Origin: Nitrosopumilus sp.
GTDB taxonomy: Archaea; Thermoproteota; Nitrososphaeria; Nitrososphaerales; Nitrosopumilaceae
NCBI GenBank assembly: GCA_965224195.1
Contig: OZ245040.1
Coordinates: 672,001-736,000 of the forward strand
Length of the DNA: 64,000 nucleotides
Direction: 5' to 3'
Below, in pieces: positions 31,813 through 55,510 of this stretch (position 1 is the stretch's first letter; every line of letters starts with the position of its first letter). A model generated the notes under the pieces. It was not told where the DNA came from, searched no databases, and was given only the letters and a program-made list of their open reading frames with translations. The position numbers were made by a program, and so were the translations under genes.

Positions 31813-31920
31813 CTTGATCAATACTAAAAACTATGAATCATCTCAAGTAAGTTTCTCAGCCTCTTCTTTTTCAGAATTCATTTTTCTTGATCAATACTAA
31901 AAACTATGAATCATCTCAAG
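31813..31920. repeat. 35-bp perfect direct repeat flanking a 38-bp unique insert (period 73)
   Basis: CTTGATCAATACTAAAAACTATGAATCATCTCAAG at 31813-31847 and 31886-31920. Confidence 0.95.
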
Positions 31921-35064: not shown

Positions 35065-35143
35065 ACTAAAAGTTTACAGCGTGCATGTGTGGATGAGTTT
35101 ACATGCCTGGTCTTACCGTGAAGTGTTCTGATGGTGTGGTTTA

Positions 35144-38100
35144 CGTAACATTTTGGTTACGGAAATTCCTCCCATCAGGGGAGGTTCAGGTCAATACAGT
35201 ATGGGCTTCAATGGGGCCGTAACATTTTGGTTACGGAAATTGGGGAAAATGACATATACAATATATACTGTATATACGCTTCAATGGGGCCGTAACATTT
35301 TGGTTACGGAAATTGCATGGACCTCCAGATATAATTTACTCAACTTGTTCCGGCTTCAATGGGGCCGTAACATTTTGGTTACGGAAATGTATCTAATGGT
35401 CTTGGACCTGGACTTTTCTCACGAGCTTCAATGGGGCCGTAACATTTTGGTTACGGAAATTTGCGGAGATTTTCATCATTTCTTGCAAGAGTTGTATAGC
35501 TTCAATGGGGCCGTAACATTTTGGTTACGGAAATTATGGGTTAACCGTCTGGATGATTTGGAAGAAGTGTAGCTTCAATGGGGCCGTAACATTTTGGTTA
35601 CGGAAATTGCCTGGCCGGATATTTTTAGAATGCGGCGTATCCGGGCTTCAATGGGGCCGTAACATTTTGGTTACGGAAATTAATCACTCCCTGCTGCCAC
35701 TACCAGCAGATGACACAGCTTCAATGGGGCCGTAACATTTTGGTTACGGAAATCACGGGATGGAGTATAAACGATATTGAGCATTCTGCTTCAATGGGGC
35801 CGTAACATTTTGGTTACGGAAATAAGATGGCCAAGAAGAAGAGGCAGCACCAGCACCAGGCTTCAATGGGGCCGTAACATTTTGGTTACGGAAATCGTTG
35901 TAGATATCACCGGTGACAGAGTCTTCGTCTAGCTTCAATGGGGCCGTAACATTTTGGTTACGGAAATTTATCTGCCGTAATTTCAATTGAATCAATTGCA
36001 GTCTGCTTCAATGGGGCCGTAACATTTTGGTTACGGAAATCAGGTACCAGCATGGGCATAACTGACATGGTGGGCAAGCTTCAATGGGGCCGTAACATTT
36101 TGGTTACGGAAATTAGATTAGTTCTGCGTTGTTTCCTTCTCGGCATATTGGCTTCAATGGGGCCGTAACATTTTGGTTACGGAAATAAAAATTGACATAC
36201 ACTATGCCAATTTCCAGATTGGTAAGCTTCAATGGGGCCGTAACATTTTGGTTACGGAAATATCCCACTGTTGCCAGTGATGACACGTGTGACATCCTTG
36301 CTTCAATGGGGCCGTAACATTTTGGTTACGGAAATTGTGTCGACTATGATGGGGAGGATGTGCAGTATGTCTAAGCTTCAATGGGGCCGTAACATTTTGG
36401 TTACGGAAATAAAAAAGAAGTGGGTGAACCACGGTTATCATTTATTAGCTTCAATGGGGCCGTAACATTTTGGTTACGGAAATATTTCAGGTCTGCTTTT
36501 CTCAAGGTTGCACCGGGTTGCTTCAATGGGGCCGTAACATTTTGGTTACGGAAATAAATCATACGGGCCTTGAAGCGACCCGCTGCAAAGCAAGCTTCAA
36601 TGGGGCCGTAACATTTTGGTTACGGAAATTATTCCTGGCAGATGTCATGGACAAAATCAGTGGTCATGCTTCAATGGGGCCGTAACATTTTGGTTACGGA
36701 AATTAGGAACACCTGCATAACAGTAAGACATTTATCCGTAGCTTCAATGGGGCCGTAACATTTTGGTTACGGAAATGTGTCTCGCTCAAGCAGTGTCTTT
36801 GTTACGTCATTGTCTGAGCTTCAATGGGGCCGTAACATTTTGGTTACGGAAATCGTTTTGTGGTGACGTGTACCTGTTGGCACCGGTGTGCTTCAATGGG
36901 GCCGTAACATTTTGGTTACGGAAATCAGGGAGCTTTCTCGGGATACCGGTCAGCTTGGCTTTGCTTCAATGGGGCCGTAACATTTTGGTTACGGAAATCA
37001 TGCTATTCCGACGTGGTAGGTGTATCTACGAATTGCTTCAATGGGGCCGTAACATTTTGGTTACGGAAATCATATCTGAGATTTGCTCCTTCCAGATCTG
37101 TGCCAATGCTTCAATGGGGCCGTAACATTTTGGTTACGGAAATCATATGATATCGGGTATGGCCGTCCAATGTCCTCGGGCTTCAATGGGGCCGTAACAT
37201 TTTGGTTACGGAAATGGGATGAAGTACGGGCAAAAATAAATCGTGCAACCATGCTTCAATGGGGCCGTAACATTTTGGTTACGGAAATATGGCTACAAAG
37301 TCATAACTGTAATGGTGGTTAACGCGCTTCAATGGGGCCGTAACATTTTGGTTACGGAAATTAATGCTGAGTTGTTAACCAAATTCACATTCGTAAAGCT
37401 TCAATGGGGCCGTAACATTTTGGTTACGGAAATCGGTATCGAAACCTATCACAAGCCCAACCCTGAAAACTAGCTTCAATGGGGCCGTAACATTTTGGTT
37501 ACGGAAATCCGGTGGTGATTCTGCAATAGCTGATAGTTACACATTGCTTCAATGGGGCCGTAACATTTTGGTTACGGAAATCAGTTAAGATGACGGATTA
37601 TATAGATCAGTCCGAAATCGGCTTCAATGGGGCCGTAACATTTTGGTTACGGAAATCATTGCGTATACAGCGTGCTCATGTGCTTTTCAATGGCTTCAAT
37701 GGGGCCGTAACATTTTGGTTACGGAAATCACCTGACGGAGGAGTTGATGGCGGTGATGGTGATGGGCTTCAATGGGGCCGTAACATTTTGGTTACGGAAA
37801 TTTGTCAGGGCGAGTGAGACGAGGGTTGGCACGTATGCTTCAATGGGGCCGTAACATTTTGGTTACGGAAATTCGGCAGATAGACGGAGTGTTATGATGC
37901 CAGTCGAACCGCTTCAATGGGGCCGTAACATTTTGGTTACGGAAATCAAAGGACATATGTACTGCCCAAAATGTCGCAGACCTGCTTCAATGGGGCCGTA
38001 ACATTTTGGTTACGGAAATTAACCCAGGGATTCCCGGCGTAATCGATGGAGTTGTGCTTCAATGGGGCCGTAACATTTTGGTTACGGAAATCCGAGACTC

Positions 38101-41100
38101 TTGACATTGCGGAATCGCTTGGATCAAGCTTCAATGGGGCCGTAACATTTTGGTTACGGAAATTGCCTGTACCAAGATGTGATTTTATCGAGGGCATCCT
38201 TGCTTCAATGGGGCCGTAACATTTTGGTTACGGAAATCCGTAAAGGCTGCTGACCAGTGGAGGTCTAGTATCTAAGCTTCAATGGGGCCGTAACATTTTG
38301 GTTACGGAAATAATGCAAAGGCATGATTCATGAAATGGGTTACAGTCTGCTTCAATGGGGCCGTAACATTTTGGTTACGGAAATCTGAACCGATTGCCGC
38401 GTATGCCTTTTCTTTCTTCTTGGCTTCAATGGGGCCGTAACATTTTGGTTACGGAAATGCGTATATAGCAGTTATAATTTCAGAAACAGAATATGCTTCA
38501 ATGGGGCCGTAACATTTTGGTTACGGAAATTTATAGCTCATGACATTGTCAGTGTGGAAGTCATTTAGCTTCAATGGGGCCGTAACATTTTGGTTACGGA
38601 AATGCACCAAAAAAAGGGTAACTTGGGTGTTTACAATTCTGCTTCAATGGGGCCGTAACATTTTGGTTACGGAAATCGAGTTAACCCCATGTCTAGGGTC
38701 GTGGTGTCAAGAGCTTCAATGGGGCCGTAACATTTTGGTTACGGAAATTCAGATGCAAATGGGGAAATTGTCATGGGCGCAGAATAGCTTCAATGGGGCC
38801 GTAACATTTTGGTTACGGAAATATCGCCGTTGCCAGTGTGCCACCTACAGTATCTCTCGCTTCAATGGGGCCGTAACATTTTGGTTACGGAAATAAAATT
38901 CGGAAACAACTAGAGCAGGACAAACTGAATAGCTTCAATGGGGCCGTAACATTTTGGTTACGGAAATATTTCCACAACGGAAACGTTGTGGCCCCATTGA
39001 AATAGCTTCAATGGGGCCGTAACATTTTGGTTACGGAAATCAGAAAAGGCTAGACGTGTATTTGACAGCAGGAGCATGCTTCAATGGGGCCGTAACATTT
39101 TGGTTACGGAAATTCACGGAAAATATGCCGACATTCGCTTAACGCCTCACGCTTCAATGGGGCCGTAACATTTTGGTTACGGAAATCAAAAATTAATGCT
39201 TGGAAATAAGTTCTCAAATCTAAGTGCTTCAATGGGGCCGTAACATTTTGGTTACGGAAATCAAAATTGCAGAATAAATGTCAAGTTCTTCCAGCTTGCT
39301 TCAATGGGGCCGTAACATTTTGGTTACGGAAATCACAAGGGAGCCACAACATATAAGCCCAGTTATTATAGCTTCAATGGGGCCGTAACATTTTGGTTAC
39401 GGAAATATGCCAATGTTTGCACGACCAGTTACAAACTTGTTCTCTCGCTTCAATGGGGCCGTAACATTTTGGTTACGGAAATTTGCAGGATGCCGTATCT
39501 GAGACGGAGACTAATTGAGCTTCAATGGGGCCGTAACATTTTGGTTACGGAAATCAGTTGGGCCTTTATTTCTCTGACCAGGTTGGCAGTGCTTCAATGG
39601 GGCCGTAACATTTTGGTTACGGAAATTCAGATTTGCTCCAAACATTTCTGCCCCTCTCAGAGCTTCAATGGGGCCGTAACATTTTGGTTACGGAAATCTA
39701 AAGAATTCAGGCAGTAAATCCGCCATATCTATCGCTTCAATGGGGCCGTAACATTTTGGTTACGGAAATTAGAAGATAGAGTGCGATTAAATGTTTGGTA
39801 GGGCATTAGCTTCAATGGGGCCGTAACATTTTGGTTACGGAAATACAGTAATTCCTGAAAAAGTGAATACTGCTGAACTAGCTTCAATGGGGCCGTAACA
39901 TTTTGGTTACGGAAATTCGAGCCATCAATGTTTGACAAATTCGTTCTACTGTGCTTCAATGGGGCCGTAACATTTTGGTTACGGAAATACGGGATATTGA
40001 TTCATTAACTCGTCAACGATTCTGAGCTTCAATGGGGCCGTAACATTTTGGTTACGGAAATTTTGGTTTCTTCGGATGTTTTCAGCGCACTAATTCCGTG
40101 CTTCAATGGGGCCGTAACATTTTGGTTACGGAAATCGATAGGTGATGACCTAGATAATGTCATAATTGATTAGCTTCAATGGGGCCGTAACATTTTGGTT
40201 ACGGAAATAAATCTGTTGCATTCAGCCAATAATGTGCTCCAACAGCTTCAATGGGGCCGTAACATTTTGGTTACGGAAATGCGGAAAACAAACAAAGCAC
40301 ATCACTCGAAAAAGAACAGCTTCAATGGGGCCGTAACATTTTGGTTACGGAAATCTCACAAGATTTACAGGTTAATCCGCCAAGTTAACTGCTTCAATGG
40401 GGCCGTAACATTTTGGTTACGGAAATTTGCAAAGCCAACCATATGCAAACCGTCTTGAATCGTCAAGAGCTTCAATGGGGCCGTAACATTTTGGTTACGG
40501 AAATTTATAACAATTCAAACATTGCTGAAGACTCTGACCTGCTTCAATGGGGCCGTAACATTTTGGTTACGGAAATCTTGAAAGGCGCAAATCTAAAAGG
40601 AGCAAACCTAGTGCTTCAATGGGGCCGTAACATTTTGGTTACGGAAATTCGGTTATAATCTCTGATTGTCATTAGTCCTCTTATCGCTTCAATGGGGCCG
40701 TAACATTTTGGTTACGGAAATCTGATACGTCGATGTCGATTGATGCCTTTCTTTTGCCGCTTCAATGGGGCCGTAACATTTTGGTTACGGAAATTTAGTC
40801 CAAAACTGGATTAACAGAAATTCCTCAAAGCTTCAATGGGGCCGTAACATTTTGGTTACGGAAATTTGACATAGTGGCTATCAAATTAGTGGCTCCTTGC
40901 ATATGCTTCAATGGGGCCGTAACATTTTGGTTACGGAAATAGGTCAAGATGGTTTAGAAATCATTGTTTTTTATAAGCTTCAATGGGGCCGTAACATTTT
41001 GGTTACGGAAATAAAATACAAACGAGGACTAAAAGCAGCTAGCACTGCAGCTTCAATGGGGCCGTAACATTTTGGTTACGGAAATCAGTTGATGAACTGA

Positions 41101-41740
41101 ACCAGAGTTCAGTTTTAGTCAGCTTCAATGGGGCCGTAACATTTTGGTTACGGAAATTCGGAACGATTGTAATAATTACAAGTGACCCGAAAAGCTTCAA
41201 TGGGGCCGTAACATTTTGGTTACGGAAATCTAATCCGTCTTGGGAATATGCTTTTTGACCGTGGATCTGCTTCAATGGGGCCGTAACATTTTGGTTACGG
41301 AAATGATGTGTATGCGTGCCTGTACCAAGATATAATTTTGTGCTTCAATGGGGCCGTAACATTTTGGTTACGGAAATCATGGAATTTTATTACACTGCAG
41401 TATCACGAGGGAGGCTTCAATGGGGCCGTAACATTTTGGTTACGGAAATTTATGCAGGTCACATGTGTTCGCTGTGGATACACAAAGCTTCAATGGGGCC
41501 GTAACATTTTGGTTACGGAAATGTGCAGTAGGTCTACCTCGACATCTACAGAATTATAGCTTCAATGGGGCCGTAACATTTTGGTTACGGAAATTTTTTC
41601 CAGCAAAAAATTGAAAAGAGATACACAACTAAGCTTCAATGGGGCCGTAACATTTTGGTTACGGAAATTCCGAGTACCCTCACGGAGTTAGAACTGAGTG
41701 AGTAGCTTCAATGGGGCCGTAACATTTTGGTTACGGAAAT
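35144..41740 (-). CRISPR. Type I-G CRISPR array: 90 identical 36-bp repeats plus one degenerate trailer repeat, about 90 spacers of 34-42 bp
   Basis: Repeat (minus strand) ATTTCCGTAACCAAAATGTTACGGCCCCATTGAAGC with stem CCGTAAC/GTTACGG; partial repeat 35144-35166 marks the trailer; count made by eye. Confidence 0.98.
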
Positions 41741-41911
41741 AGCAGAAATTGTGCTCAAGTTTTTACTATTTGTATAATTATACATACGTTTGTTTATTTA
41801 CTTCACAATATGTTGTTAACTATAAAAACCAATTTTTAGTTTTTCATAGATCTTATATTGTTATGACAAGCGCTTCTGCATGTGTACGTCATCACATCGT
41901 CCCTCGTCAAG
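41741..41911 (-). promoter_or_regulatory. CRISPR leader
   Basis: AT-rich non-coding segment between cas2 and the first repeat; TATA-like palindrome TGTATAATTATACA about 30-45 bp from the repeat. Confidence 0.8.
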
Positions 41912-42202
41912 TTATATTATTATTGCAGACTCTTTTTTTGTGTTTATCGGTTCACCTAGTGTGCTTATACAATTTTTACCTCTACCATCAACAGGTCCAA
42001 CATCAATTATTAAAACTCTGTCTTCTTTTAAATTTAATATCTCTTTTAGATCCCCTTTCATTAGAACCAATTCCTTTGGATTTACATCGCACATAAATAC
42101 AGAATATTGAACCGGTATGCCATAACCGTTCATTTTTTTGTATGTATCTGCAAGTCGTCTAGGCTCACTCACATCATAACATACAAAATATCTATTACGC
42201 AA
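41912..42202 (-). CDS. cas2: CRISPR-associated endonuclease Cas2
   Basis: YFVCYDVS, YGIPVQYSVFMC, EDRVLIID. Confidence 0.95.
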   Translation of the reverse strand: MRNRYFVCYDVSEPRRLADTYKKMNGYGIPVQYSVFMCDVNPKELVLMKGDLKEILNLKEDRVLIIDVGPVDGRGKNCISTLGEPINTKKESAIII

Positions 42203-42205
42203 TAA

Positions 42206-43876
42206 TTATCGTGTCCTAAATGATAAATAAGAAGGTAATTCCCCTAAAAGGTATCGGGATAAAAGTCTTGCCTGAATTTCCATGATTCTTCTATAACTTA
42301 CAACGTATCCTAATAATGGGTGTGTGATTGGAGTATCCATCCTTCGCTCAAAGGCATTGATGATCTTGCTTTTTCCATTTTTTGTAAGAGTCACACCGAA
42401 CTTTGTTCTTATAATATCTGCATTTGATAATTCACCATTATTGATTATTGTAATGCAAACTGAATCTGCAATTATTGGCCTGAATTCTTCAATTAAATCT
42501 AAGGCAAGTGCAGGTTTACCATATCTGGGTTTATGAAGAAACCCTAGATAGGGATCAAGGCCTACTCGTAATAGAGTAACTGTTGCCTGTTTTGTAAGCA
42601 TCGTATACAAAAATGAAAGTATCGCATTTACTGGGTCTAGAGGAGGGCGTTTGTTTCGCCCATTAAAATCAAAATCATACAAATTTGTTTTTAGCATTCC
42701 ATTAAATTCTGAAAAATAAATCTTTGCTGCAATTCCTTCAATTCCAAGAATTTGTTCGTACTTTTTAGCAACACGTGCCTTCTCTGCAAATTTATCAATC
42801 TCAGTGGATACCGTATTTGGCAGATGTTTGTGATTTCTACGCAACAACGTAATGCAATTTTTGATCTTCCCAAATACAATCTCTCTCGCAACTGGCATGA
42901 ATAATTTATCTTCTGCTGCTTGTTTGTATTGGCATAATCTTAGTTCCACATTCTTATGAGACATTCCATTAGTAATCCCTGTAAACCATCCACCATAGCT
43001 CAGATAGCATATTGGAATATTATTATCACACAGATAACGTACTGCTTGAGTCGTAACTTGAATATTTCCCATTATTGTGATATTGGAGATGTCAAGCATC
43101 CTGATTTTTTTTAACACATTACCTTGATATTTGATTACTATGCAATCATGATCCTTTGATACTACGGCGCCTTGTTCCTGAACATATACTGGCATTGAAT
43201 CATCTACAGCAGGATACATGCGTCTAACTTGACTTTTTTTAATTAATTTCTTAGACTTGCCTGCAAGCAGATTTATCTCATCTGGAAGACATATTCCAAC
43301 CAGAGCACATCTGGGGCATTTTGGACTGTCTACTAGTGGGGGTGGCATTATATTTGAACGTGCCATGTCACGCATTTGCTGGATCATCTTTTCTGTCTTC
43401 TCAACTAGAACATCTGAAAATACAACTTCTATGCGCTGTTTTGATGATATGTAATATATGATTCCTTTTGTACATGTATATCCGTGAGATCTAAGTAATA
43501 ATCCCTGACCACATATCTGAATCTTGTGATAATCATGTACTTTATCTGGAATATTTGGAACGGCACCACGTTTGTATTCTATGGGTGTGGCATATGATCC
43601 ATCTAATTCTAGCAGGTCCATCTTTGCAATGAGACCAACATTGCTGTCTGAAACAGTAATTGATCTTGCATGAATTACTTGATCAGGATCTTCTCTTAGT
43701 TTTTTATTTCCTGACGGTTTATCTACATTTCTGTGCTGCATCTTTCCATCTATTACATCTACAGTATCTGTAAACTCATTTTGTATCCACTGCATGTATG
43801 CTGAACGTGGACAATATGCATATTCTGCAAGCATACTTACAGGAATGAATCTTGGTTCTTTGTATTCTGCCATCAT
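42206..43876 (-). CDS. cas1: Cas4-Cas1 fusion
   Basis: Cas4: YCPR, MDLLE, PIEYKRG, KCPRCALVGICLPDE; Cas1: LGIEGIAAKIYF, RPPLDPVNAILS, LGFLH, LALDLIEEFRP. Confidence 0.95.
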   Translation of the reverse strand: MMAEYKEPRFIPVSMLAEYAYCPRSAYMQWIQNEFTDTVDVIDGKMQHRNVDKPSGNKKLREDPDQVIHARSITVSDSNVGLIAKMDLLELDGSYATPIEYKRGAVPNIPDKVHDYHKIQICGQGLLLRSHGYTCTKGIIYYISSKQRIEVVFSDVLVEKTEKMIQQMRDMARSNIMPPPLVDSPKCPRCALVGICLPDEINLLAGKSKKLIKKSQVRRMYPAVDDSMPVYVQEQGAVVSKDHDCIVIKYQGNVLKKIRMLDISNITIMGNIQVTTQAVRYLCDNNIPICYLSYGGWFTGITNGMSHKNVELRLCQYKQAAEDKLFMPVAREIVFGKIKNCITLLRRNHKHLPNTVSTEIDKFAEKARVAKKYEQILGIEGIAAKIYFSEFNGMLKTNLYDFDFNGRNKRPPLDPVNAILSFLYTMLTKQATVTLLRVGLDPYLGFLHKPRYGKPALALDLIEEFRPIIADSVCITIINNGELSNADIIRTKFGVTLTKNGKSKIINAFERRMDTPITHPLLGYVVSYRRIMEIQARLLSRYLLGELPSYLSFRTR

Positions 43877-44589
43877 TCTTCATATGGCACAAACATTCCA
43901 AGTCCAAAATGACATCCATATCCCAAAAAAAGCGGTCCAGATACAGGATTGCTAAATTCCAGCATTACCTCATATCCTGGCATCGGTTTTTCATTTGGTT
44001 TTCTAATACGCTTGAACTCTTTTGGTTGTATTTTAGATAGATGCATTGGTATGCTATTGTCCTTTACAACCACATTTATTATTTTATATAAAGGATATCT
44101 CCGTTTCAATTCCAATTCTACTTGATTCTTTGGAGTATCAGACACCTTATTGCCACGGATTTTTGTATGCCGATTTAATACAAAAGGCGTTTTTGAAATC
44201 CATTTTTTATGTTCCTGCATCATTGAATTATCTTCATTGATATTGTCACAAAGTATTACATGTGCACGTATGTTGTCGTGTTTAGAATATATCTCATCTA
44301 CTGCTTTAACCGCATCTAGTTCCAATATTGTAAGTTTAGTATCTGTCATAATTGTTATATGATCAATATATCCATCACAATCATCATCAGTGGGAATATA
44401 AAAAACATGTTCATGCCCATATAGTGGCATGCCATTAGAATCCTTTCCGGCCAGTGTTCTTGAAACATTGTTATTGTTTTGTCTTCCATAATGGGACATT
44501 ATTGCCAATCTGATTAAACTGCCAACATTAATTGTAAAAGTTATTGAAATATTGTTTTCATAAATTTGATATCTTAATGTGTTGCACAT
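43873..44589 (-). CDS. Stand-alone Cas6-like RAMP (resembles C-terminal half of Csb2)
   Basis: LAGKDSNGMPLYGHEHVFYIP...DGYIDH, WISKTPFVL, Gly-rich loop GPLFLGYGCHFGLGMF. Confidence 0.75.
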   Translation of the reverse strand: MCNTLRYQIYENNISITFTINVGSLIRLAIMSHYGRQNNNNVSRTLAGKDSNGMPLYGHEHVFYIPTDDDCDGYIDHITIMTDTKLTILELDAVKAVDEIYSKHDNIRAHVILCDNINEDNSMMQEHKKWISKTPFVLNRHTKIRGNKVSDTPKNQVELELKRRYPLYKIINVVVKDNSIPMHLSKIQPKEFKRIRKPNEKPMPGYEVMLEFSNPVSGPLFLGYGCHFGLGMFVPYEE

Positions 44590-44598
44590 CTTATCATG

Positions 44599-45525
44599 TC
44601 AAACTTCCTTTGTTCCTTTTGTAAATCTCATTTGTTTATCTTTGGTAATTCTTTCTGAAGAATACAATTCCAATCCAATTTTGTCAAGTTCTTCTGGCTT
44701 AAACTTGGAGTAATCTGTAGACAAAATACCTCGAATTTCGTCCAGACCTGCAAACTCTTCCCATATTGGCCATACAAATTTTTTGTCATTCCATCCAATA
44801 GTACGTACATGCTTACCATCGTATAGTGTGGGATAAAGAGAAATAGCTTCTACTGCAAGTCTGTTTGCTCCATGCATAGATGGGTTAAAACTCGGTACAG
44901 GATCAAATATCAGCAGTGCATGCTCTCGTAGAAGAGATATAGGATCCCAATACATAGAAACACCGTCATCCAAATAATCCCATTCTTTAAAGAGTGTGGT
45001 ATGGATCCCTTCTTTCTTTCTTTCTATTTCCCCCACAAGCTTGTTTGCATTCCCAAATAAAGTTGCGTTTCCAGTTACAAACCGAAACAAACTATCTTTA
45101 ATTTCTTCTTTGTCTGGAAAAGCAACAGATGCAGCAAAATCATATAGGCGTCTTTTGCTTGAAAAATTATTAGAATCGATCTTATTCATAATCAGATCCA
45201 TAATAAAACCCATAAATTCATTGTATTGATCATATTTGTTGGCCTTTGTAGATTTTGAGTCCTTTTTATTTTTCCCCTTCATAATCCCTCCATAATCAAT
45301 GTCTTGTGGCTCAAACAAAGGATCATCTTTGCCAAGATGCTCTGCAAGTAGATCAGATATCTCTTCTTCTGTTGGTTCTTTACCATCTTTACATCGTATC
45401 TCTGCATTGGTATTCCAACGTAACTCCCATTCTGATTTTGGTTCTATCATGTCAAGTACTCTAATAGTTCCAAGGGATACCAAAAAATTAAATGGGTTGT
45501 CAGGGTATAAACTGTGTAAGATCAA
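44599..45525 (-). CDS. Type I-G large subunit (Cas8g/Csb3-like); probable TTG start overlapping cas3 stop
   Basis: NPFNFLVSLG, WDYLD...WDP, GANRLAVEAISLYP, FVWPIW; position directly after cas3. Confidence 0.7.
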   Translation of the reverse strand: MILHSLYPDNPFNFLVSLGTIRVLDMIEPKSEWELRWNTNAEIRCKDGKEPTEEEISDLLAEHLGKDDPLFEPQDIDYGGIMKGKNKKDSKSTKANKYDQYNEFMGFIMDLIMNKIDSNNFSSKRRLYDFAASVAFPDKEEIKDSLFRFVTGNATLFGNANKLVGEIERKKEGIHTTLFKEWDYLDDGVSMYWDPISLLREHALLIFDPVPSFNPSMHGANRLAVEAISLYPTLYDGKHVRTIGWNDKKFVWPIWEEFAGLDEIRGILSTDYSKFKPEELDKIGLELYSSERITKDKQMRFTKGTKEV

Positions 45526-48329
45526 TTTGTGCCACCGCTTGCTTCCCAATCCGCAAGTATGAATAAGGCCTCCAACCATGCAAGTCCCCACCACCCATAC
45601 TTTCTAACACATATCCAAAAACGTTTTGCAGCTCCACTTCCAACACGCTCAATTCCAGTAGACGCTTGAGCTTGTAGCGTTTTCCCATCCAAAACATACT
45701 CTATATTTGGATTTTCATCATCGATGACTACTGGTACAAACGGTCTACAATGACCATGATGGGATTCTACTAGGTGTAAAAATAAATCATTATCGAAAGT
45801 ATTCAGTGTTTTAGCAAATTCTGATGAAATAAATTCATGCCTAAAGCCCTTTGGGTAATATATGACACTTGAATCTTTTTTCTTCCCGTTATCTTTTGCA
45901 CGAAGTTGTGGATGGTGCATTTTTGATCTATACAGCATGTCTTGGAATCTTTTGTCTGCCTTTCCTATGTCGTGCACCTTTGCAGTCATTTCAAATAATG
46001 CAGTAAAATCATCTAGTTTTAGTTTTTCTACATATTTCTTAACATTTTTCACAACATCATCTGTATGATCCTCTAAAATTTCTTTTGGGGTATCTTTGTC
46101 TTTTTTTTGGCCTGTTTTATATCTGGATTTGATTAGCAAAATGTTGTCATCTAGCTCTCCAATATGATCTATAGGAGAATTTGTCATATCACTGTCGATT
46201 TTTAAAGTTTTGTCAATTGCTTTCAGGGAATCCCACAATGGAGTTTTTTCTAGTGATTTCCATATTGTTTTTTTAATTTTTTCAATATCCATCTTTGAAT
46301 ATTCATTTTTTATAGCATGAATAAGATCTTTTCCCTCATCTGTCATCTTTACTGGAAAGTTATTTCCCATTCTAATTACTAGTTTCTTTGTTGATTCAAA
46401 TGTAGCTTTTTCGGCAATGTCTACACATGTCTTGTCTGTATTTTCATTTGACCCATATTCATCCATGTCCGGTATGTGACCTAGTTTTGACCATCCTCCA
46501 TCTTCAGTACGTAGCACAATAACATCACTAGGTTTTATATCATCTGGGTTAATTTCACCGTTCTGACCTGATTTTTTACCGCGCCAAACCCATGCACTTA
46601 TCTTTGCTCGCTTCTCATTGTCCATGCCTTTTGCTCGCTTCTCATTGTCCATGCCTTCTGCTAACTGCCATTCCACATCTCCATCAGCGCATAAATCCTT
46701 TTCATTTTTTAGATATTTGCGAATATCCCATATTGGGACTTGCATGGATTCAATAGATTTTGGTAAAAGTGCATTCATTATGTCTTCCCAATTGGCATCT
46801 AGGCCAGAACGCCATATTACAGAGACCATTGGTGAGCCTCGCTCAAAGCCATGTAGAAATGGAGATATGTCAGGATCAATGTGAAGATGGTTGTGTGTTT
46901 GACATAACAGATCCATATGAGATGGTAAAAGATTGCATGATACTGGTCCTGGCATAACAAATTCTGCCACCTGATCATAATTACATTTATCAATTATTTT
47001 CTTGAATTTTTTTATCCCAAAATCTATCGTGTCGTTTGTGGCATTATTTTTAAGAAAGTCCCATGTTTTGCTTACTGTATCACCATATATAAAATCACTA
47101 CCATTACTATTTACGACAGATTTTGGCGCAACTATCGAACACCGTGAATTTAGATATTCGCCGCTACGGTTAAGCCTTCCAAATCTTTGCCTAAGTGAAT
47201 CTAAACTTGATGCCTCACTGACCATACCTGCAAAATCAAGATCAGCACCTACCTCAAGACACTGTGTTGTCACGATAAATGTTACTTCAGTGGGTTTTTT
47301 TTCACCTGTCTTAAATGGTTTTATATCGCGCCATAATTTATCACGATCCCATGGTCTCATTCTTCCAATCATGAGATGTGTATTGTGATGGCCACTTTCC
47401 TTTAATTTGCGATATACCTCTTTTGCTGTTGCGATTCTGTTTACAACTATGGCAATTGCTTTAATGTTGTCTTTCTCTAACTCTAAAGCTTGTTTTTGAA
47501 TATCTGATGCAAGTTTCTCATAATCCTTACTGTCTTTTGCATTTGATTCTATTAACTTACACATTTTAGAGGCCTCAACTATGCGTTTTATTTTATCATG
47601 TTTATAGTCAGCATCAGAGAGTTCAAATCTTTCTGTCTCTTTAATGGGTGTTGCAGTCATTTCTACCACACCCCATGGTCTAGGGATTGATTTACCCTCA
47701 ATCCAAGGTTCCTTCCTAAATTCTTCAATACGTCTTAATGTCTCTGTGAATGGTTTGCTGATATGCGTCTCATCTAGTATCCAAAGACAATCATATCCCA
47801 AAAGCCCTGCATTTACAAGTCTAGACATACGTCCTAGGCCATATCCGCGAAAGAGTAATCTGGATCCTGCTTGATCTACAGTTGATGCGATAACAATTGG
47901 TTGTACTGGATTACTACTCCATTCATTATCAATATGAGTTCCACCCCGGAGGACAGCATGCATTAGAGCTGTTTTACCTCCAGAAATATCACACAGGCTC
48001 TTTTTCACCCTCCCCAGTATCGAGTCATCTGTTGATTTCTCTAACTCATCGGATATTTTCTTGGCACGCTCATTTCCTTCATCTACAACTATTCGTCTGT
48101 TGACAACAAACACTATTCTTCTTGGATTCTTCTCAGGATTACATGCAAGTGCATATACTGCTATATCTATGCATGACGTCTTTCCACATCCAGTTGGAAC
48201 ATTTATGCTTTCAGGCCATCTACCTGTCTCAATTACTTGCTCGGCAAGCTTGCTTTGCCACGGGTATGGCTCATATCCATGTATTTCTCGATAAAAATCC
48301 TTAAACTCACAGGAAGTTAATTCAACCAT
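45522..48329 (-). CDS. cas3: Type I-G Cas3 (SF2 helicase with C-terminal HD nuclease)
   Basis: PTGCGKT, VNRRIVVD, STVDQAGSRLLFRGYG, DETH, EVGADLD, QRFGRLNR; C-terminal HDIGKAD, RHE, SHHG, LADWEAS. Confidence 0.95.
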   Translation of the reverse strand: MVELTSCEFKDFYREIHGYEPYPWQSKLAEQVIETGRWPESINVPTGCGKTSCIDIAVYALACNPEKNPRRIVFVVNRRIVVDEGNERAKKISDELEKSTDDSILGRVKKSLCDISGGKTALMHAVLRGGTHIDNEWSSNPVQPIVIASTVDQAGSRLLFRGYGLGRMSRLVNAGLLGYDCLWILDETHISKPFTETLRRIEEFRKEPWIEGKSIPRPWGVVEMTATPIKETERFELSDADYKHDKIKRIVEASKMCKLIESNAKDSKDYEKLASDIQKQALELEKDNIKAIAIVVNRIATAKEVYRKLKESGHHNTHLMIGRMRPWDRDKLWRDIKPFKTGEKKPTEVTFIVTTQCLEVGADLDFAGMVSEASSLDSLRQRFGRLNRSGEYLNSRCSIVAPKSVVNSNGSDFIYGDTVSKTWDFLKNNATNDTIDFGIKKFKKIIDKCNYDQVAEFVMPGPVSCNLLPSHMDLLCQTHNHLHIDPDISPFLHGFERGSPMVSVIWRSGLDANWEDIMNALLPKSIESMQVPIWDIRKYLKNEKDLCADGDVEWQLAEGMDNEKRAKGMDNEKRAKISAWVWRGKKSGQNGEINPDDIKPSDVIVLRTEDGGWSKLGHIPDMDEYGSNENTDKTCVDIAEKATFESTKKLVIRMGNNFPVKMTDEGKDLIHAIKNEYSKMDIEKIKKTIWKSLEKTPLWDSLKAIDKTLKIDSDMTNSPIDHIGELDDNILLIKSRYKTGQKKDKDTPKEILEDHTDDVVKNVKKYVEKLKLDDFTALFEMTAKVHDIGKADKRFQDMLYRSKMHHPQLRAKDNGKKKDSSVIYYPKGFRHEFISSEFAKTLNTFDNDLFLHLVESHHGHCRPFVPVVIDDENPNIEYVLDGKTLQAQASTGIERVGSGAAKRFWICVRKYGWWGLAWLEALFILADWEASGGTN

Positions 48330-49780
48330 TGTTTATCCCACCATGGCCTACACAAACCATACCCATTATATCTTCCAGCTCCTAATAATAATGGACCTGT
48401 GATTTTTTCCTTGAATTGAAGTCGTGCATGCACTTGTATTCTGTTTTCTGCATACTTTGGAAATGTGTTGGACTTTGGCACTCCCTTTAGAAATGCAATA
48501 TTTGATATGGATACATCAGGTTCAGGAAGATTTTGATATGTGCATGATTTGGATATTATTTCCCCCGCTTTGTCATTCCAGGTTGTACTATCTTTTACAC
48601 GTGGAATTCTATCTAATATTATTGGTGTTGTTGTAACCCATGTTCTTGCAGATTCTTTCCAAGTATTCGGGTCTAGCGTTCTTATGGGGTGATCCGGAGG
48701 ATCCAAAGAAAACACTATGTCATCATAATTTTTATTCTTGATTCTAATCTCCGTGGATTCTTTAGTGCCAAACAATGCCTTTGAAATAACATCTTCACTT
48801 TTAGAATCTCTTTCACGTGGAAATATGATTGCAACGCCACGAATTAATCCGTCTGCATATGAATGGCCTGTAAAAGATAATGGTACTATTGCAATATGTG
48901 GCTTTTTACTTGGATTTCCATCCGTATCAAGTCCTGATATATATTCTGGCGAATTACTTTCCTGTATTTTATTTCTTAGAGATCGTATTACATGTTTGCT
49001 GTGTAATAAACTGGGTTTTTGATCACTTGTAATTGGCATAATCCACATATCTGAAAATTGACCTCGAATACAGGGTGCTTTCTGATCTTGTTTTTTAGAA
49101 TATCTGTATTCTGGTAGAGATATGGCATTAAGACGTGCTTTTCTGATAAAATATTCATCATGACTTTTAAGAATGTCTTTTACCATAAATGATTTTTCTA
49201 GTTTGGATAATAGTCCTTTTGATGCCCAGCGAACTGTGGTATCTCCAAACTTGTCTGGAATCATGGCAGGATCTATGCTGACTTTTGAATCATTAACGGT
49301 TAATGAGACAAAACTGCTACTGTGACCCAACCTATGAACTCGAGAACAAAGTGTCTTTAACGTATTCGAGTATTTTTGAGAATCTGCATCATCCCATACA
49401 AAATACACTGGGTCATACCCTGTTATGGTGGTGGGAAACATGCGTGACTTGCGTATTCTATTTAGAGGTATTTCTAATGTTGTCAACAGTGCACCGCCTT
49501 TTTTGACTTTTTTCCCAATTTCATCATTTATTGGAACATATGTTTCTACAATATCACGTTTGGTAATTTTATCTGGTTCATAATATATCCAAGGGGGGCT
49601 ACATTGTTCAAGCCACTCTAAAGCTTTCTTTTCATTTTGTTTTTCACCTCCATCAAAATATGCCGACACCATTGCCATAAACAATCTGCCTGGATGTGGT
49701 GGCCATTCTGGTTTTTTATCTTGTTTTAAATTTGTTGCAGTATAGCGTCCTGTCAAAAACTCTATGCTGATAGACAGCAT
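48317..49780 (-). CDS. csb2: Type I-G Csb2 (Cas5-Cas6 fusion)
   Basis: EWPPHPGRLFMAMV, ALEWLEQ, YVPIND, RLGHSSS, WVTTTPIILDR, GPLLLGAGRYNGYGLC. Confidence 0.92.
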   Translation of the reverse strand: MLSISIEFLTGRYTATNLKQDKKPEWPPHPGRLFMAMVSAYFDGGEKQNEKKALEWLEQCSPPWIYYEPDKITKRDIVETYVPINDEIGKKVKKGGALLTTLEIPLNRIRKSRMFPTTITGYDPVYFVWDDADSQKYSNTLKTLCSRVHRLGHSSSFVSLTVNDSKVSIDPAMIPDKFGDTTVRWASKGLLSKLEKSFMVKDILKSHDEYFIRKARLNAISLPEYRYSKKQDQKAPCIRGQFSDMWIMPITSDQKPSLLHSKHVIRSLRNKIQESNSPEYISGLDTDGNPSKKPHIAIVPLSFTGHSYADGLIRGVAIIFPRERDSKSEDVISKALFGTKESTEIRIKNKNYDDIVFSLDPPDHPIRTLDPNTWKESARTWVTTTPIILDRIPRVKDSTTWNDKAGEIISKSCTYQNLPEPDVSISNIAFLKGVPKSNTFPKYAENRIQVHARLQFKEKITGPLLLGAGRYNGYGLCRPWWDKQWLN

Positions 49781-49782
49781 AG

Positions 49783-51057
49783 TTAATCTCCTTTTGAATC
49801 ATCTTCTAATCCACTTTGTGAATTTTTTATACACTGAATAAGATCCTGATTTGGTAATAATTTCATAGGTGTTGTATCCCATGGCAAATCATTACTAGTT
49901 GCATCTTTAATCGAGTCTTCTAATAATTTAATTGCACCTTTACTGTCAAGAGTAAATGTTTTATCCATATTGCCGAGTACATCCCAAGTTGTTGGTTCTT
50001 TTTGTATCAAAACACATCTTGAGCGAAGATCCAATCCATTTTCCACCGAAAGCGTAAATGCTACAAGTCCAAGTGCTGTTAATACTGCTCTTGCTGCATC
50101 ATCTTTTTGTATATTTATTGATTTTTCATTTTCATTAGGAAAATGTAGTTTTCGGAGTCCAGCAAGAGAGATAACACATGTCTGTTCTGCATATTCTATT
50201 GTTGCTCCATTTGCAGCGATATCCCCTTTTTTGATAGTGTTGTCGTTAGAAAGGGGATTACTTGAACCAGGTAAGTTATCACTATATGTATTGAGACTTG
50301 GTGCGACATTTCCTAGGTTTATGTTAGATAATTTCCCTTCTCGATATTTTGTTGACTTGTCTTTTTCGTCCTTTTTTGCTTCATTTTCATCAAGCGTCCA
50401 ACCTCCATCTTCTTTTTCCCATACTCTGCTATCAGAAGTTTTTTGGATTAAAGGATCAATACGGCTTGAAGTACCAACTCCAAACACTGCATTAATGCCA
50501 ACTATTTCACTAGTAATTACCCGTTCAAATTTGTTTCCCGATCCTCCTTTTGGACCTGCAGAGTCCCACATGCCAAAAAGTAATGCTGTAGGACATGTGC
50601 CAAACAGAGATGTAGAAGAATAAGGTGTAGAGTTTAGTATTTTGATACCCTCTTCAGATTCACGAAACGGCTTACCATTTAAAATACATTCCCTAAACAA
50701 TGCATCAGCTATGCGGTGCGGTGCCTGAAGGCTTGTTAAACGATTTCCTACAATGTCTAAATCATCTTTACTTGATTCAGAAAAATCAATTACAGCTAAC
50801 GGTAGTTTTATTTTTTCAGAATCAACAGCATTTTGTAATGCTTCCTCCATACGATTTGCTTGGCTAGCAACAGAATCCATCAAAACACATTTGGTTGTTT
50901 TTTCATTAACCAATCTGTCTTCTATGGCATACACTCCTCCTGCATATGTAGAGGGAAATATTTTACTATGTTGCCCACCGGCTGGATATAATTTGTTAAT
51001 TGTTCTTATGGCCACCTGATCTTTTATAATTTCCTTAAATTCTTGAAATTCTAACAT
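49783..51057 (-). CDS. csb1: Type I-G Cas7 (Csb1)
   Basis: KIFPSTY, DSVASQANRMEEAL, APHRIADA, PTALLFGMWDS, LDLRSRCVL. Confidence 0.92.
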   Translation of the reverse strand: MLEFQEFKEIIKDQVAIRTINKLYPAGGQHSKIFPSTYAGGVYAIEDRLVNEKTTKCVLMDSVASQANRMEEALQNAVDSEKIKLPLAVIDFSESSKDDLDIVGNRLTSLQAPHRIADALFRECILNGKPFRESEEGIKILNSTPYSSTSLFGTCPTALLFGMWDSAGPKGGSGNKFERVITSEIVGINAVFGVGTSSRIDPLIQKTSDSRVWEKEDGGWTLDENEAKKDEKDKSTKYREGKLSNINLGNVAPSLNTYSDNLPGSSNPLSNDNTIKKGDIAANGATIEYAEQTCVISLAGLRKLHFPNENEKSINIQKDDAARAVLTALGLVAFTLSVENGLDLRSRCVLIQKEPTTWDVLGNMDKTFTLDSKGAIKLLEDSIKDATSNDLPWDTTPMKLLPNQDLIQCIKNSQSGLEDDSKGD

Positions 51058-53229: not shown

Positions 53230-53611
53230 AACCTATCAAAAATCCTCCAATTCCTTTTGTTAGTGCTTCATGATGGGACATTACTCCTTGGTTTGTTGTT
53301 ACCAAAAGCATTCCTCTGTCATATGCCGGCAAATATTGCTGCTCCCAACTGTTGTATTCGTCAGTTTTAACTTTGAATCTTGGGGAGATTGCACCACATT
53401 TTATAATTTTTGCCAATAGTTTAATTTTAAATTTTCCGCCTCTTTTGTCATCGATGTGTTCAAACTCTCCAATGTAGCCGTCTTTTTGAAGTGTTTTTAG
53501 AACTTCAATGCCTAGTTTTGATGTTGGAAGTATAACGCAATCGGTATTTCTTCTTGCTTCATTATTGTAAAGTGTGACAAATAGATTTGCTAAGATGTTT
53601 GTTGCCGGCAT
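53219..53611 (-). CDS. rps8: 30S ribosomal protein uS8
   Basis: GYIGEFEHIDDKRGG, CGAISPRF, TTNQGVMSH. Confidence 0.95.
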   Translation of the reverse strand: MPATNILANLFVTLYNNEARRNTDCVILPTSKLGIEVLKTLQKDGYIGEFEHIDDKRGGKFKIKLLAKIIKCGAISPRFKVKTDEYNSWEQQYLPAYDRGMLLVTTNQGVMSHHEALTKGIGGFLIGYVY

Positions 53612-53617
53612 GTTATA

Positions 53618-54318: not shown

Positions 54319-54322
54319 GAGA

Positions 54323-55506: not shown

Positions 55507-55510
55507 TTTA

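What the first reader, a model, noticed from the sequence alone, without database searches (positions are those of the whole stretch)
38968..39004. A spacer that is itself a complete foreign CRISPR repeat, in inverted orientation
Seen: the spacer reads ATTTCCACAACGGAAACGTTGTGGCCCCATTGAAAT(A) on the + strand. It is 27/36 identical without gaps to the array's own repeat ATTTCCGTAACCAAAATGTTACGGCCCCATTGAAGC, starts exactly at repeat position 1, and has compensatory stem changes (CCACAACG/CGTTGTGG with a GAAA loop vs CCGTAAC/GTTACGG). The covariation argues for a functional repeat from another locus rather than a decayed copy. Established: viruses and plasmids carry mini-arrays and solitary repeat units (RNA anti-CRISPRs). 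Inference: immunity aimed at an invader's CRISPR or anti-CRISPR repeat, or capture of a unit cut out at repeat borders by Cas1. In the pre-crRNA it is antisense to its flanking repeats, so it could block local processing or regulate crRNAs.
Basis: partly seen in the sequence, partly recalled or inferred. Interest (0 to 1): 0.85.

Follow-up and report, generated by a model that had tools for sequence, protein, structure and literature searches.

The report
CRISPR spacer copied from foreign repeat
One spacer in a marine archaeon's CRISPR array is an almost complete CRISPR repeat of a related but different array, stored backwards, which suggests that CRISPR systems sometimes take memories from other CRISPR loci, although nothing yet shows a special job for it.

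Summary
Window 38968-39004 is spacer 38 from the leader in a 90-repeat type I-G array that is transcribed on the minus strand. On the plus strand it reads as a full 36-nt I-G-type repeat plus one base. It matches the array's own repeat at 27/36 positions. It matches at 31/36, with the same stem, the repeat of a real 12-unit orphan array in another genome of the genus (G372).

A covariance model built from 7 repeat variants of the genus, without the spacer, scores it 46.7 bits (E about 1e-10). The exact 36-mer was not found as a repeat in any collection searched.

It is rare. It was 1 of 1150 spacers in I-G arrays of 13 genomes. I found a second, independent case in G274, where a I-B-type array holds a spacer made of 29 nt of an I-G repeat plus 7 flanking nt (1 of 584).

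Best reading (0.68): this is an ordinary Cas4/1-Cas2 acquisition from foreign DNA carrying an I-G-type repeat (array, mini-array or solitary unit). The antisense orientation and the predicted ~30-bp pairing with a repeat would then be by-products.

A dedicated regulatory or anti-Racr role is possible but untested.

The parts
38968..39004 (-). Spacer 38 from the leader (52nd from the low-coordinate end), 37 nt. As transcribed it is one base (T) followed by the reverse complement of a 36-nt I-G-type repeat. On the plus strand, 38968-39003 reads as that repeat.
39005..39040 (-). Leader-proximal (RNA-upstream) repeat of the unit. Its 3' part (GGCCCCAUUGAA) and the first part of the spacer form a perfect 12-bp inverted repeat with a 5-nt loop. 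The whole repeat is predicted to pair with the spacer over about 30 bp, including G-U pairs.
   Evidence: MFE -45.6 kcal/mol, z -6.6, 0 of 200 shuffles as low; lowest of 89 units.
38932..38967 (-). Leader-distal repeat of the unit, with a normal hairpin in the three-part fold.
35205..41740 (-). Type I-G CRISPR array: 90 identical 36-nt repeats and 89 spacers.
   Evidence: The strand follows from repeat anatomy (7-bp stem, 4 nt, 8-nt ATTGAAGC tail), from Rfam CRISPR-DR16 matches on the minus strand, and from the leader and cas genes on the high-coordinate side.
35131..35166 (-). Degenerate terminal repeat at the trailer end, followed towards the array by one more spacer-length stretch.
   Evidence: flank print; 81% match; 17.5 bits at 35144-35161.
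41741..41911 (-). A+T-rich leader between cas2 and the first repeat. This is inferred from position only.
   Evidence: flank print. No promoter was tested.
41912..42202 (-). cas2
   Evidence: TIGR01573, E 8.8e-09.
42206..43876 (-). cas4g/cas1g fusion, the adaptation enzyme that would have inserted the spacer.
   Evidence: NF049935, 714.7 bits against a cut-off of 560.
43873..44589 (-). 238-aa protein like the C-terminal (Cas6-like) half of Csb2.
   Evidence: TIGR02165, profile positions 253-492, E 1.2e-16.
44599..45594 (-). Type I-G Cas3-extension family protein.
   Evidence: NF049934, E 6.2e-34.
45522..48329 (-). cas3g helicase/nuclease.
   Evidence: TIGR02621, 698 bits.
48317..49780 (-). csb2 (Cas5-Cas6 fusion), the expected pre-crRNA endonuclease.
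   Evidence: TIGR02165, E 5e-75. The role is taken from PMC9638904 passages.
49783..51057 (-). csb1/cas7g
   Evidence: TIGR02570, E 6.1e-18, residues 16-188 only.

Best explanation
The 37-nt unit is a genuine spacer. The locus's own Cas4/1-Cas2 machinery took it up from DNA that carried a CRISPR repeat of the same Nitrosopumilus type I-G repeat family, with a different stem, loop and last two bases. The donor could have been another strain's array, an orphan or mobile-element-borne array or mini-array, or a solitary repeat unit.

One end of the prespacer was set by a PAM lying just outside the donor repeat's 3' end. Spacers here are 36-37 nt and the repeat is 36 nt, so the other end fell on the repeat's first base. 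Which strand carried the PAM decided the orientation, so the crRNA carries the donor repeat in antisense.

If the crRNA is made, it would guide the I-G effector to DNA carrying that repeat next to a PAM. In a donor array, that means any unit whose flank supplies one.

The predicted ~30-bp pairing of the spacer with an own repeat follows automatically from this origin. It may lower processing of one or two neighbouring crRNAs, but there is no evidence that it was selected.

Shown: the anatomy, family membership of the unit, its rarity, the existence of the same stem in a real array, and a second independent capture of I-G repeat DNA by another CRISPR array in the genus.

Inferred: the donor, the PAM, expression and any effect on processing.
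For: Normal spacer anatomy:
- Perfect flanking repeats and a length of 37 nt, which is the modal class (31 of 89), at position 38 of 89, with 37 younger spacers on the leader side.
- An intact Cas4g/Cas1g and Cas2 lie next to the leader.

The unit is a family member on the opposite strand:
- 46.7 bits, E about 1e-10, from a model built without it.
- The hairpin is kept by double changes.

The same stem exists in a real array:
- G372 (record titled Nitrosopumilus sp.) has 11 identical units plus 1 degenerate unit, 31/36 identical to the spacer.
- That genome has no Cas4/1g and no Csb2 of either kind.
- IS66- and IS110-family transposase genes lie nearby. It is therefore an orphan array of the sort that moves.

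The repeat family with covarying stems is widespread in the genus:
- 5 of 150 other genomes.
- 6 of 150 others.
- further arrays in G353 and G303.

Second independent case:
- In G274, a 160-repeat I-B-type array holds the spacer TAACGAAAAAGTTATGGCCCCATTGAAGC+TTACCAA.
- This is 29/29 identical to positions 8-36 of the G371/G328-type I-G repeat, plus 7 nt of flank.
- G274 has no I-G array.

Support from papers (passages only):
- Type I-G uses a 36-nt repeat. Csb2 cuts 4 nt 3' of a 7-bp stem, leaving an 8-nt handle. The PAM is TTN (PMC9638904).
- In I-G the PAM end is cut by Cas4, and the non-PAM end is trimmed without sequence preference (PMC10504553).
- Thaumarchaeal integrated elements carry CRISPR arrays, two of them without cas genes (PMC6563490).
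Against: No donor was found. The exact 36-mer, or its core, was absent from every collection searched:
- Own genome outside the spacer.
- 400 family genomes at <=3 mismatches.
- 150 genus genomes.
- The species-representative genome collection, apart from the 31/36 relative.
- IMG/VR.
- JGI metagenome contigs.
- Phage and plasmid records, which gave only chance-level matches at E>=1.

Other points against:
- The last two bases are AT. All 13 genomes' I-G arrays end the repeat in AAG plus one more base, mostly C. The donor is therefore of a kind not yet seen, and not even the type of donor can be named.
- The exact register (full repeat plus 1 nt) would be expected for only about 2 of 73 start positions per strand of a donor array (my estimate). 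This mild coincidence is left unexplained.
- No PAM, no expression data and no read support could be examined (closed).
- The window locus itself has no recognisable Cas8g. Whether it can interfere on its own is therefore open.
Confidence: 0.68

Rival explanations
1. Counter-counter-defence. The donor was a solitary repeat unit or mini-array of a virus or plasmid, that is an RNA anti-CRISPR (Racr) or a hijacking mini-array aimed at I-G systems. The host kept a spacer against it. Because the crRNA is antisense to the mimic RNA, it could both direct DNA cleavage at the mimic gene and pair with the mimic RNA.
For: - Racrs are repeat mimics encoded as solitary units in viruses and plasmids for almost all CRISPR types (PMC10651486, abstract and passages).
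- I-G-family units occur in 17 IMG/VR contigs. Eleven hold a single unit, 3 hold two units, and 3 hold six or nine. Three contigs share a solitary unit with an altered tail, ATTGAAAA.
- Solitary I-G-like units exist in G384 and G195.
- The own genome carries four copies of a composite element with I-G-like units that have other stems and altered tails.
- The spacer's non-canonical AAAT tail resembles such units more than it resembles array repeats.
Against: - None of the viral units has this stem. The best is 28/36 identical, and all sit on contigs of 45-65% G+C, so they are not Nitrosopumilus-like.
- No donor was found, and orientation is a coin toss.
- Neither the Racr paper passages I read nor my searches mention I-G or spacers against Racrs.
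Confidence: 0.15
2. Self-derived memory. The donor was a second I-G array once present in the same genome, for example one that arrived with the second, IS-flanked I-G effector cluster. The spacer is a relic of self-targeting that helped to delete that array.
For: - The genome has a second I-G effector cluster (cas3g, csx17/cas8g, csb1, csb2, and a truncated csb2) at C1:~1228100-1236400.
- That cluster is flanked by IS5-family transposase genes and has no adaptation genes or array.
- There is also a degenerate I-G-like mini-array at C1:1626150-1626335.
Against: - No remnant of a unit with this stem lies within 15 kb on one side and 9 kb on the other of that cluster at <=12 mismatches, or anywhere in the genome at <=10 mismatches apart from one unrelated unit.
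- The two Csb2 lineages give no link to the CCACAACG stem.
Confidence: 0.08
3. Selected in-array anti-repeat. The unit is kept because its RNA pairs with repeats, like a tracrRNA anti-repeat. It would throttle or redirect pre-crRNA processing, in cis or in trans on any of the 90 repeats.
For: - The predicted repeat-spacer duplex is about 30 bp. The repeat-spacer-repeat fold gives -45.6 kcal/mol, against a mean of -24.0 (sd 4.1) and a next-lowest value of -36.0 among 89 units.
- The unit has been retained while 37 younger spacers were added.
Against: - The pairing follows automatically from the unit being an antisense copy of a related repeat. The G-U pairs on one arm and A-C mismatches on the other are what transitions in a stem give.
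- It is unique: 1 of 1150 I-G spacers in 13 genomes, 0 of 199 in the genome's other two arrays, and the G274 case is in sense orientation.
- In a 400-nt context the local 12-bp helix had probability 0.02, and the partner was a distal repeat.
- Low predicted probability of the canonical hairpin is not special to this unit. 21 of 89 units have an upstream hairpin probability below 0.5.
Confidence: 0.06
4. Artefact or decay: an assembly chimera, a local inversion of an own repeat, or a degenerate own repeat.
For: Read support could not be examined (closed). Palindromic DNA can mislead assemblers.
Against: - An inverted own repeat would be 36/36 identical. Here there are 9 differences, 4 of them forming two compensatory pairs, and the same stem is used by a real array elsewhere.
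- All 90 flanking repeats are identical and the spacing is regular.
Confidence: 0.03

Closest known systems
Ordinary type I-G spacers acquired by Cas4/1-Cas2 (Geobacter and Methanosarcina systems; PMC10504553 passages)
   Same: It sits between intact repeats, has the modal length, and lies next to a Cas4g/Cas1g-Cas2 module. The PAM-end and ruler logic explains its borders.
   Different: The captured DNA is itself a CRISPR repeat of a sister array. The crRNA is therefore complementary to the array's own repeats at 27 of 36 positions (about 30 predicted pairs with G-U), and its target would be a repeat that recurs along a donor array.
[quoted passage not shown]
   Same: It is an RNA segment complementary to the CRISPR repeat that can form a long repeat:anti-repeat duplex.
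   Different: It lies inside the array as a spacer and is not a separate gene. The three cas1-linked loci and the extra effector cluster that I annotated in the genome are all type I. Complementarity is imperfect, and no processing enzyme for such a duplex is known here.
RNA anti-CRISPRs (Racr) and solitary repeat units of viruses and plasmids (PMC10651486; PMC11656645)
   Same: The plus-strand reading is a single repeat-like hairpin unit that differs from the host repeat, as Racrs do. Such a unit is a candidate donor.
   Different: It lies in a host array, is flanked by host repeats, and is in antisense to the direction of transcription. It would be a memory of such a unit, not the unit itself.
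Mobile-element-borne arrays and mini-arrays (Sulfolobales viruses, PMC6858448, seen as a search listing only; thaumarchaeal integrated elements, PMC6563490 passages)
   Same: They show that CRISPR arrays travel on mobile DNA in archaea, including Thaumarchaeota. Arrays can thus enter a cell as foreign DNA.
   Different: Those reports concern spacers carried by the elements. I found none that describes a host spacer made of an element's repeat.
Orphan I-G-type array of G372 (record titled Nitrosopumilus sp., L002/L028)
   Same: It shares the 8-bp stem, the CCCC spacer element and the ATTGAA core, and is 31/36 identical.
   Different: The loop is ATAA rather than GAAA, the first base is C rather than A, and the tail is GC rather than AT. 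It is not the donor.

Membership tests
CRISPR spacer of the window's type I-G array | Flanked on both sides by intact repeats of the array, at the regular period | tested here: met
   the repeats at 38932-38967 and 39005-39040 are identical to the other 88.
CRISPR spacer of the window's type I-G array | Length within the array's spacer length distribution | tested here: met
   it is 37 nt. 31 of 89 spacers are 37 nt and 30 are 36 nt.
CRISPR spacer of the window's type I-G array | A matching protospacer with a PAM (TTN for studied I-G systems) in a foreign element | tested here: inconclusive
   No donor was found, so there is no flank to read.
Type I-G CRISPR repeat family of the genus (the unit read on the plus strand) | 36 nt with a 7-8 bp stem at positions 5-12/17-24, then CCCC and an 8-nt ATTGAA-type tail | tested here: met
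   The covariance model built without it gives 46.7 bits over the full length. The tail is ATTGAAAT, whereas the arrays end in ATTGAAG plus one more base, mostly C.
Type I-G CRISPR repeat family of the genus (the unit read on the plus strand) | Occurs as regularly spaced direct repeats somewhere | tested here: not met
   The exact unit was not found as a repeat in any collection searched. The closest is the 31/36 repeat of the G372 array.
Rfam CRISPR-DR16 (RF01330) | Score at or above the gathering threshold (35 bits) | tested here: not met
   the own repeats score 25.3-31.5 bits on the minus strand. The spacer unit is not listed at E<=1.
tracrRNA-like anti-repeat | Extended complementarity to the repeat | tested here: met
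   a predicted duplex of about 30 bp. This is a prediction only.
tracrRNA-like anti-repeat | Own transcript, with a type II or V effector and a duplex-processing nuclease | not tested
   Only type I modules were seen at the three cas1-linked loci and at the extra effector cluster. There was no dedicated search for Cas9, Cas12 or RNase III, and no RNA data.
Racr / solitary repeat unit | Stand-alone repeat-like unit on a mobile element, transcribed in sense from its own promoter | tested here: not met
   The unit lies inside a chromosomal array and is antisense to the array's transcription.

The most novel reading that the evidence does not exclude
The spacer is a host memory of a repeat-mimic weapon, that is an I-G RNA anti-CRISPR or a hijacking mini-array carried by a Nitrosopumilus virus or integrative element. 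Because it is stored in antisense, its transcript does double duty. As a crRNA it directs cleavage of the DNA that encodes the mimic. As an antisense RNA it pairs with the mimic RNA, or in its absence with own repeats, and so tunes crRNA output. This would be a first example of CRISPR immunity aimed at an RNA anti-CRISPR. With the G274 case, it would also indicate a standing CRISPR-against-CRISPR conflict in marine ammonia oxidisers.
Probability: 0.12. Interest if true: 0.8.

Novelty: new variant of a known kind. Interest (0 to 1): 0.55.

Why it matters
Spacers are normally read as records of viruses and plasmids. Here a spacer records another CRISPR locus, and a second array of a different subtype in the same genus does the same. 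This indicates that CRISPR arrays or repeat mimics circulate as foreign DNA among marine Nitrosopumilus and are sampled by resident adaptation machinery.

In practice, such spacers confuse array callers and spacer-to-host matching. They also create a built-in anti-repeat whose effect on crRNA processing can be tested directly with Csb2.

If the donor proves to be a viral repeat mimic, the unit would be a natural anti-anti-CRISPR.

I found no paper describing a spacer that is a complete repeat of another array (full-text searches). Those searches are lexical, and the supplements of the large spacer surveys were not available to me.

Tried and rejected
Donor searches that found nothing:
- Exact 36-mer in IMG/VR.
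- Core with a free loop in IMG/VR.
- The 36-mer at <=3 mismatches in 400 family genomes.
- An AAAT-tailed generic unit in 150 genus genomes. Only two G451 array variants ending AAGT came up.
- The whole array against phage records.
- The unit against plasmids and phages, which gave only short matches at E>=1.

PAM:
- I tried to find protospacers for other spacers, to learn the PAM.
- There were no matches of own or related spacers in the own genome beyond 16-25 nt chance-level hits.
- There were none in phage records.
- The non-array hits of the array in 150 genus genomes were repeat-like units, not protospacers.
- The PAM stays unknown for this system.

Link to the second I-G cluster:
- I considered that the donor array belonged to the genome's second I-G effector cluster.
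- No remnant was found there.
- The Csb2 comparisons were uninformative.

'Cas1 cuts the repeat out':
- I rejected this as the main reading. Staggered integrase nicks do not release a free repeat duplex (established mechanism, recalled).
- Equal repeat and spacer lengths explain the register.
- The G274 case is out of register.

Hairpin-probability measure:
- The probability of the canonical repeat hairpin in repeat-spacer-repeat folds does not single out this unit. 21 of 89 units are below 0.5 upstream, so I do not use it as evidence.
- The larger-context fold moved the pairing to a distal repeat.

Tools not available or not needed:
- No structure, complex or protein-database search was needed.
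Full report
**1. What is at the coordinates**

The window holds a CRISPR array from 35205 to 41740, with 90 identical 36-nt repeats and 89 spacers of 34-42 nt. A degenerate repeat lies at 35131-35166.

On the high-coordinate side there is an A+T-rich stretch. Then, all on the minus strand, come:
- cas2
- a cas4g/cas1g fusion (714.7 bits against a cut-off of 560)
- a 238-aa protein like the C-terminal half of Csb2
- a Cas3-extension protein
- cas3g
- csb2
- csb1/cas7g

The repeat read on the minus strand has a 7-bp stem, four C, and an 8-nt ATTGAAGC tail. This is the geometry described for the Thioalkalivibrio type I-G repeat: 36 nt, Csb2 cutting 4 nt 3' of a 7-bp stem, and an 8-nt handle (PMC9638904, passages). 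Rfam's CRISPR-DR16 also matches the repeats on the minus strand, below its threshold. The array is therefore transcribed from high to low coordinates.

The finding is spacer 38 from the leader. It is 37 nt, which is the modal length class.

**2. Is it a repeat in reverse?**

Yes.
- Plus-strand 38968-39003 aligns without gaps, from position 1, to the transcribed form of the own repeat at 27/36.
- The other 88 spacers reach at most 18, and 2000 shuffled spacers at most 20.
- The 9 differences include two compensatory pairs in the stem, one more closing pair, the loop, and the last two bases.
- On eight repeat variants of the genus plus this unit, the hairpin is 92.2% paired, with 3 pairs changed on both sides. 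The covariation score is 0.348 against 0.183 in shuffles, with 0 of 500 shuffles as high.
- A covariance model built from seven repeat variants without the spacer scores it 46.7 bits, E about 1e-10 (rough calibration), over its full length on the plus strand. The own repeats score 60.4 bits on the minus strand. The next hit in 64 kb is 17.5 bits.

One caveat applies to the model: it contains the G372 repeat, which shares the stem.

Against the reading, Rfam's general model did not list the unit at E<=1.

**3. Does this repeat exist elsewhere?**

The exact unit was not found:
- It occurs once in the own 2.07-Mb genome.
- It is absent from 400 family genomes at <=3 mismatches.
- It is absent from IMG/VR and from metagenome contigs.
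- Phage and plasmid records gave only chance-level matches.

A scan of the species-representative genome collection for the core with a free loop gave one locus. It is an array of 11 identical units plus one degenerate unit, in a record titled Nitrosopumilus sp. (L002 = G372, same genus as the window). Its repeat has the same 8-bp stem and is 31/36 identical to the spacer.

G372 has no Cas4/1g, only a 30%-identical Cas1 elsewhere. It has no Csb2 of either lineage. IS66- and IS110-family transposase genes lie a few kb from the array. The array is therefore an orphan.

Across the 150 other genomes of the genus, the same repeat family with covarying stems is present in:
- G373, G451, G372, G371 and G328
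- G443, G291, G444, G343, G384 and G381
- G353 and G303

In 4 of 5 genomes tested, a Cas4g/Cas1g of 59-65% identity lies next to or near the array.

All these array repeats end in AAG plus one more base, mostly C. The spacer unit ends in AAAT. ATTGAAAT is the tail of the I-B-type repeats of this genome's array B and of G443, G177 and G322.

**4. How rare is it?**

I extracted spacers from three sets of arrays.
- I-G-family arrays of 13 genomes: 1157 intervals. Seven were dropped (four insertions of 913-1498 nt and three stretches of 16-25 nt), leaving 1150. Only the window's spacer resembles a family repeat on either strand, at 31/36. The next best is 21. The same result holds with partial-overlap scoring.
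- The genome's other two arrays (68 and 131 spacers): none.
- I-B-type arrays of seven other genomes: 585 intervals, one insertion dropped, 584 scored. There is one clear case.

The clear case is in G274. A spacer near the trailer end of a 160-repeat array is 29/29 identical, in sense, to positions 8-36 of the G371/G328-type I-G repeat, followed by 7 nt, TTACCAA. G274 has no I-G array.

This case came to light through a similarity search seeded with the window's array, so its discovery is biased. Its 7-nt tail equals the start of window spacer 36187-36225 read on the minus strand. A 7-nt match would be expected by chance in about 7% of 1157 spacers (my estimate).

In total, 2 of 1933 spacers examined are copies of I-G repeat DNA.

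**5. How it most likely arose**

In studied I-G systems, the Cas4 domain cuts the prespacer at the PAM. That end is joined at the spacer side. The other end is trimmed without sequence preference and joined at the leader side (PMC10504553, passages). It follows that the PAM-proximal end of a spacer is its 5' end in the crRNA.

Here that end is one base beyond the donor repeat's tail. With a 37-nt spacer and a 36-nt repeat, the far end must then fall on the repeat's first base. So only one coincidence, the place of the PAM, is needed for the striking register. The strand of the PAM sets the orientation.

The G274 spacer, which is out of register and in sense, fits random PAM-guided sampling of array DNA. 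It does not fit excision at repeat borders.

How array DNA becomes foreign DNA is plausible:
- Integrated elements of Thaumarchaeota carry arrays, two of them without cas genes (PMC6563490, passages).
- G372's array is an orphan beside transposases.
- Solitary I-G-like units exist in G384 and G195.
- This genome has four copies of a composite element with I-G-like units.
- IMG/VR contigs hold I-G-type units as single copies, pairs and arrays. These sit on G+C-rich contigs that are not Nitrosopumilus-like.

**6. What it would do**

This section is inference.

The crRNA would be the 8-nt handle, the 37-nt antisense unit, and the 28-nt 3' hairpin part. It would target DNA carrying the donor repeat next to a PAM.

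Against the own repeats it has 9 mismatches, two of them at spacer positions 2 and 3. Only 6 of 90 own repeats have TTN at the right place. By the seed rule known for type I-E (recalled, not tested for I-G), self-targeting should be weak. The G372 repeat is mismatched at the same two positions.

At the RNA level, the repeat-spacer-repeat segment folds into a hairpin in which the upstream repeat pairs with the spacer over about 30 bp. This includes a perfect 12-bp helix that covers the Csb2 cleavage site.
- The MFE is -45.6 kcal/mol, z = -6.6 against shuffles.
- Among all 89 units it is the lowest, against a mean of -24.0 (sd 4.1) and a next-lowest value of -36.0.

However, in a 400-nt context the minimum-energy fold pairs the spacer with a distal repeat, and the local helix has probability 0.02. 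Low probability of the canonical hairpin is also common among units (21 of 89).

The safe statement is this: the unit is an anti-repeat able to tie up one repeat. Which repeat, and whether Csb2 is hindered, needs experiment. The pairing pattern (G-U on one arm, A-C on the other) is what stem transitions produce and is no sign of selection.

**7. Comparison and novelty**

It works like an ordinary spacer and meets the anatomical criteria of one. Read on the other strand, it meets the sequence and structure criteria of the genus's I-G repeat family, but the exact unit is not known as a repeat anywhere.

It resembles a tracrRNA anti-repeat only in complementarity. It is not a Racr, though a Racr or mini-array is a candidate donor (PMC10651486, abstract and passages; PMC11656645, passages).

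Two full-text searches for reports of spacers that are or match CRISPR repeats returned nothing relevant. The paper on repeat-like elements deals with units outside arrays (PMC10120712, passages). These searches are lexical and supplements were closed, so a mention in a large survey's tables cannot be excluded.

I rate it a new variant of a known kind.

**8. Limits**

- There was no read-level check, no RNA data, no donor and no PAM.
- The window's I-G locus has no recognisable Cas8g. A canonical cas3g-csx17-csb1-csb2 cluster lies 0.5 Mb away. Which effector uses these crRNAs is unknown.
- Genomes other than the window's are samples of their groups and are related to each other. The counts are frequencies in what I searched, not rates.

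Noticed in passing
Own genome outside the window: G000:C1:790371-790599(+), 793505-793750(+), 1512847-1513090(-), 1626101-1626242(-) (loci L029-L031, L065, L070-L072): A composite element of about 235 nt, present as three near-identical copies and one diverged copy. It looks like a mixed mini-array. Its parts, in order, are: a tail like the array-C repeat, 31 nt, an I-G-like unit, 52 nt, a second I-G-like unit with another stem and an ATTAAAAC tail, 35 nt, and the head of the array-B repeat. In three copies a multicopy element of about 1 kb lies a few hundred nt away. That element encodes a 229-aa PD-(D/E)XK nuclease (Pfam E 1e-4) and a 130-aa ORF. The composite element was not found in 150 other genus genomes.
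   Followed up: partly
G274:C1:2066163-2066198 (L079:464-499; L087:11164-11199): A spacer in a 160-repeat I-B-type array is 29 nt of a G371/G328-type I-G repeat (sense) plus TTACCAA. Those 7 nt equal the start of window spacer 36187-36225 read on the minus strand. This may be chance (about 7% by my estimate) or a hint of a shared donor.
   Followed up: partly
G000:C1:941990-946529 and C1:1457181-1466783 (loci L062, L063): There are two more CRISPR-Cas loci in the genome. Array B has 69 repeats of 30 nt ending ATTGAAAT and lies next to cas4 and cas1b. Array C has 132 repeats of 37 nt ending ATTGAAAC and lies next to cas7/csh2, cas5b, cas3, cas1 and cas4.
   Followed up: partly
G000:C1:~1228100-1236400 (L088), compared with window 42206-51057: The window's I-G locus has no recognisable Cas8g/Csx17 between cas7g and the ribosomal protein operon at 52672-56256. 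A second I-G effector cluster lies 0.5 Mb away. It contains cas3g, csx17 at 579.8 bits, csb1, csb2 and a truncated csb2. It is flanked by IS5-family transposase genes and has no array or adaptation genes.
   Followed up: partly
L077 (G384:C1:~1629270-1629310) and L078 (G195:C1:~1535355-1535400): Solitary I-G-like repeat units occur outside any array. G195 showed no I-G array.
   Followed up: no
IMG/VR loci L032-L048: 17 viral contigs of 45-65% G+C carry I-G-family units. Eleven have a single unit, three have two units (L033, L034, L046) and three have six or nine (L039, L043, L047). L032, L037 and L044 share one solitary unit ending ATTGAAAA.
   Followed up: no
window 31813-31847 and 31886-31920: Two identical 35-nt copies, with palindromic ends (CTTGA...TCAAG), lie 73 nt apart. 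That is the same period as the CRISPR array. They sit just beyond the 3' end of the helicase gene (family D5).
   Followed up: no
window 31942-35064 (-): A 1040-aa UvrD/PcrA-like helicase with a C-terminal Cas4-like nuclease domain (TIGR00372, E 1.4e-19) lies directly beside the trailer end of the array.
   Followed up: no
window 46603-46656: A perfect tandem duplication of 27 nt lies inside cas3g.
   Followed up: no
Arrays of G328 (L024), G444 (L055), G303 (L059) and G322 (L085): Insertions of 913-1498 nt interrupt these arrays. G444 and G291 also have a few abnormally short spacers of 16-25 nt.
   Followed up: no
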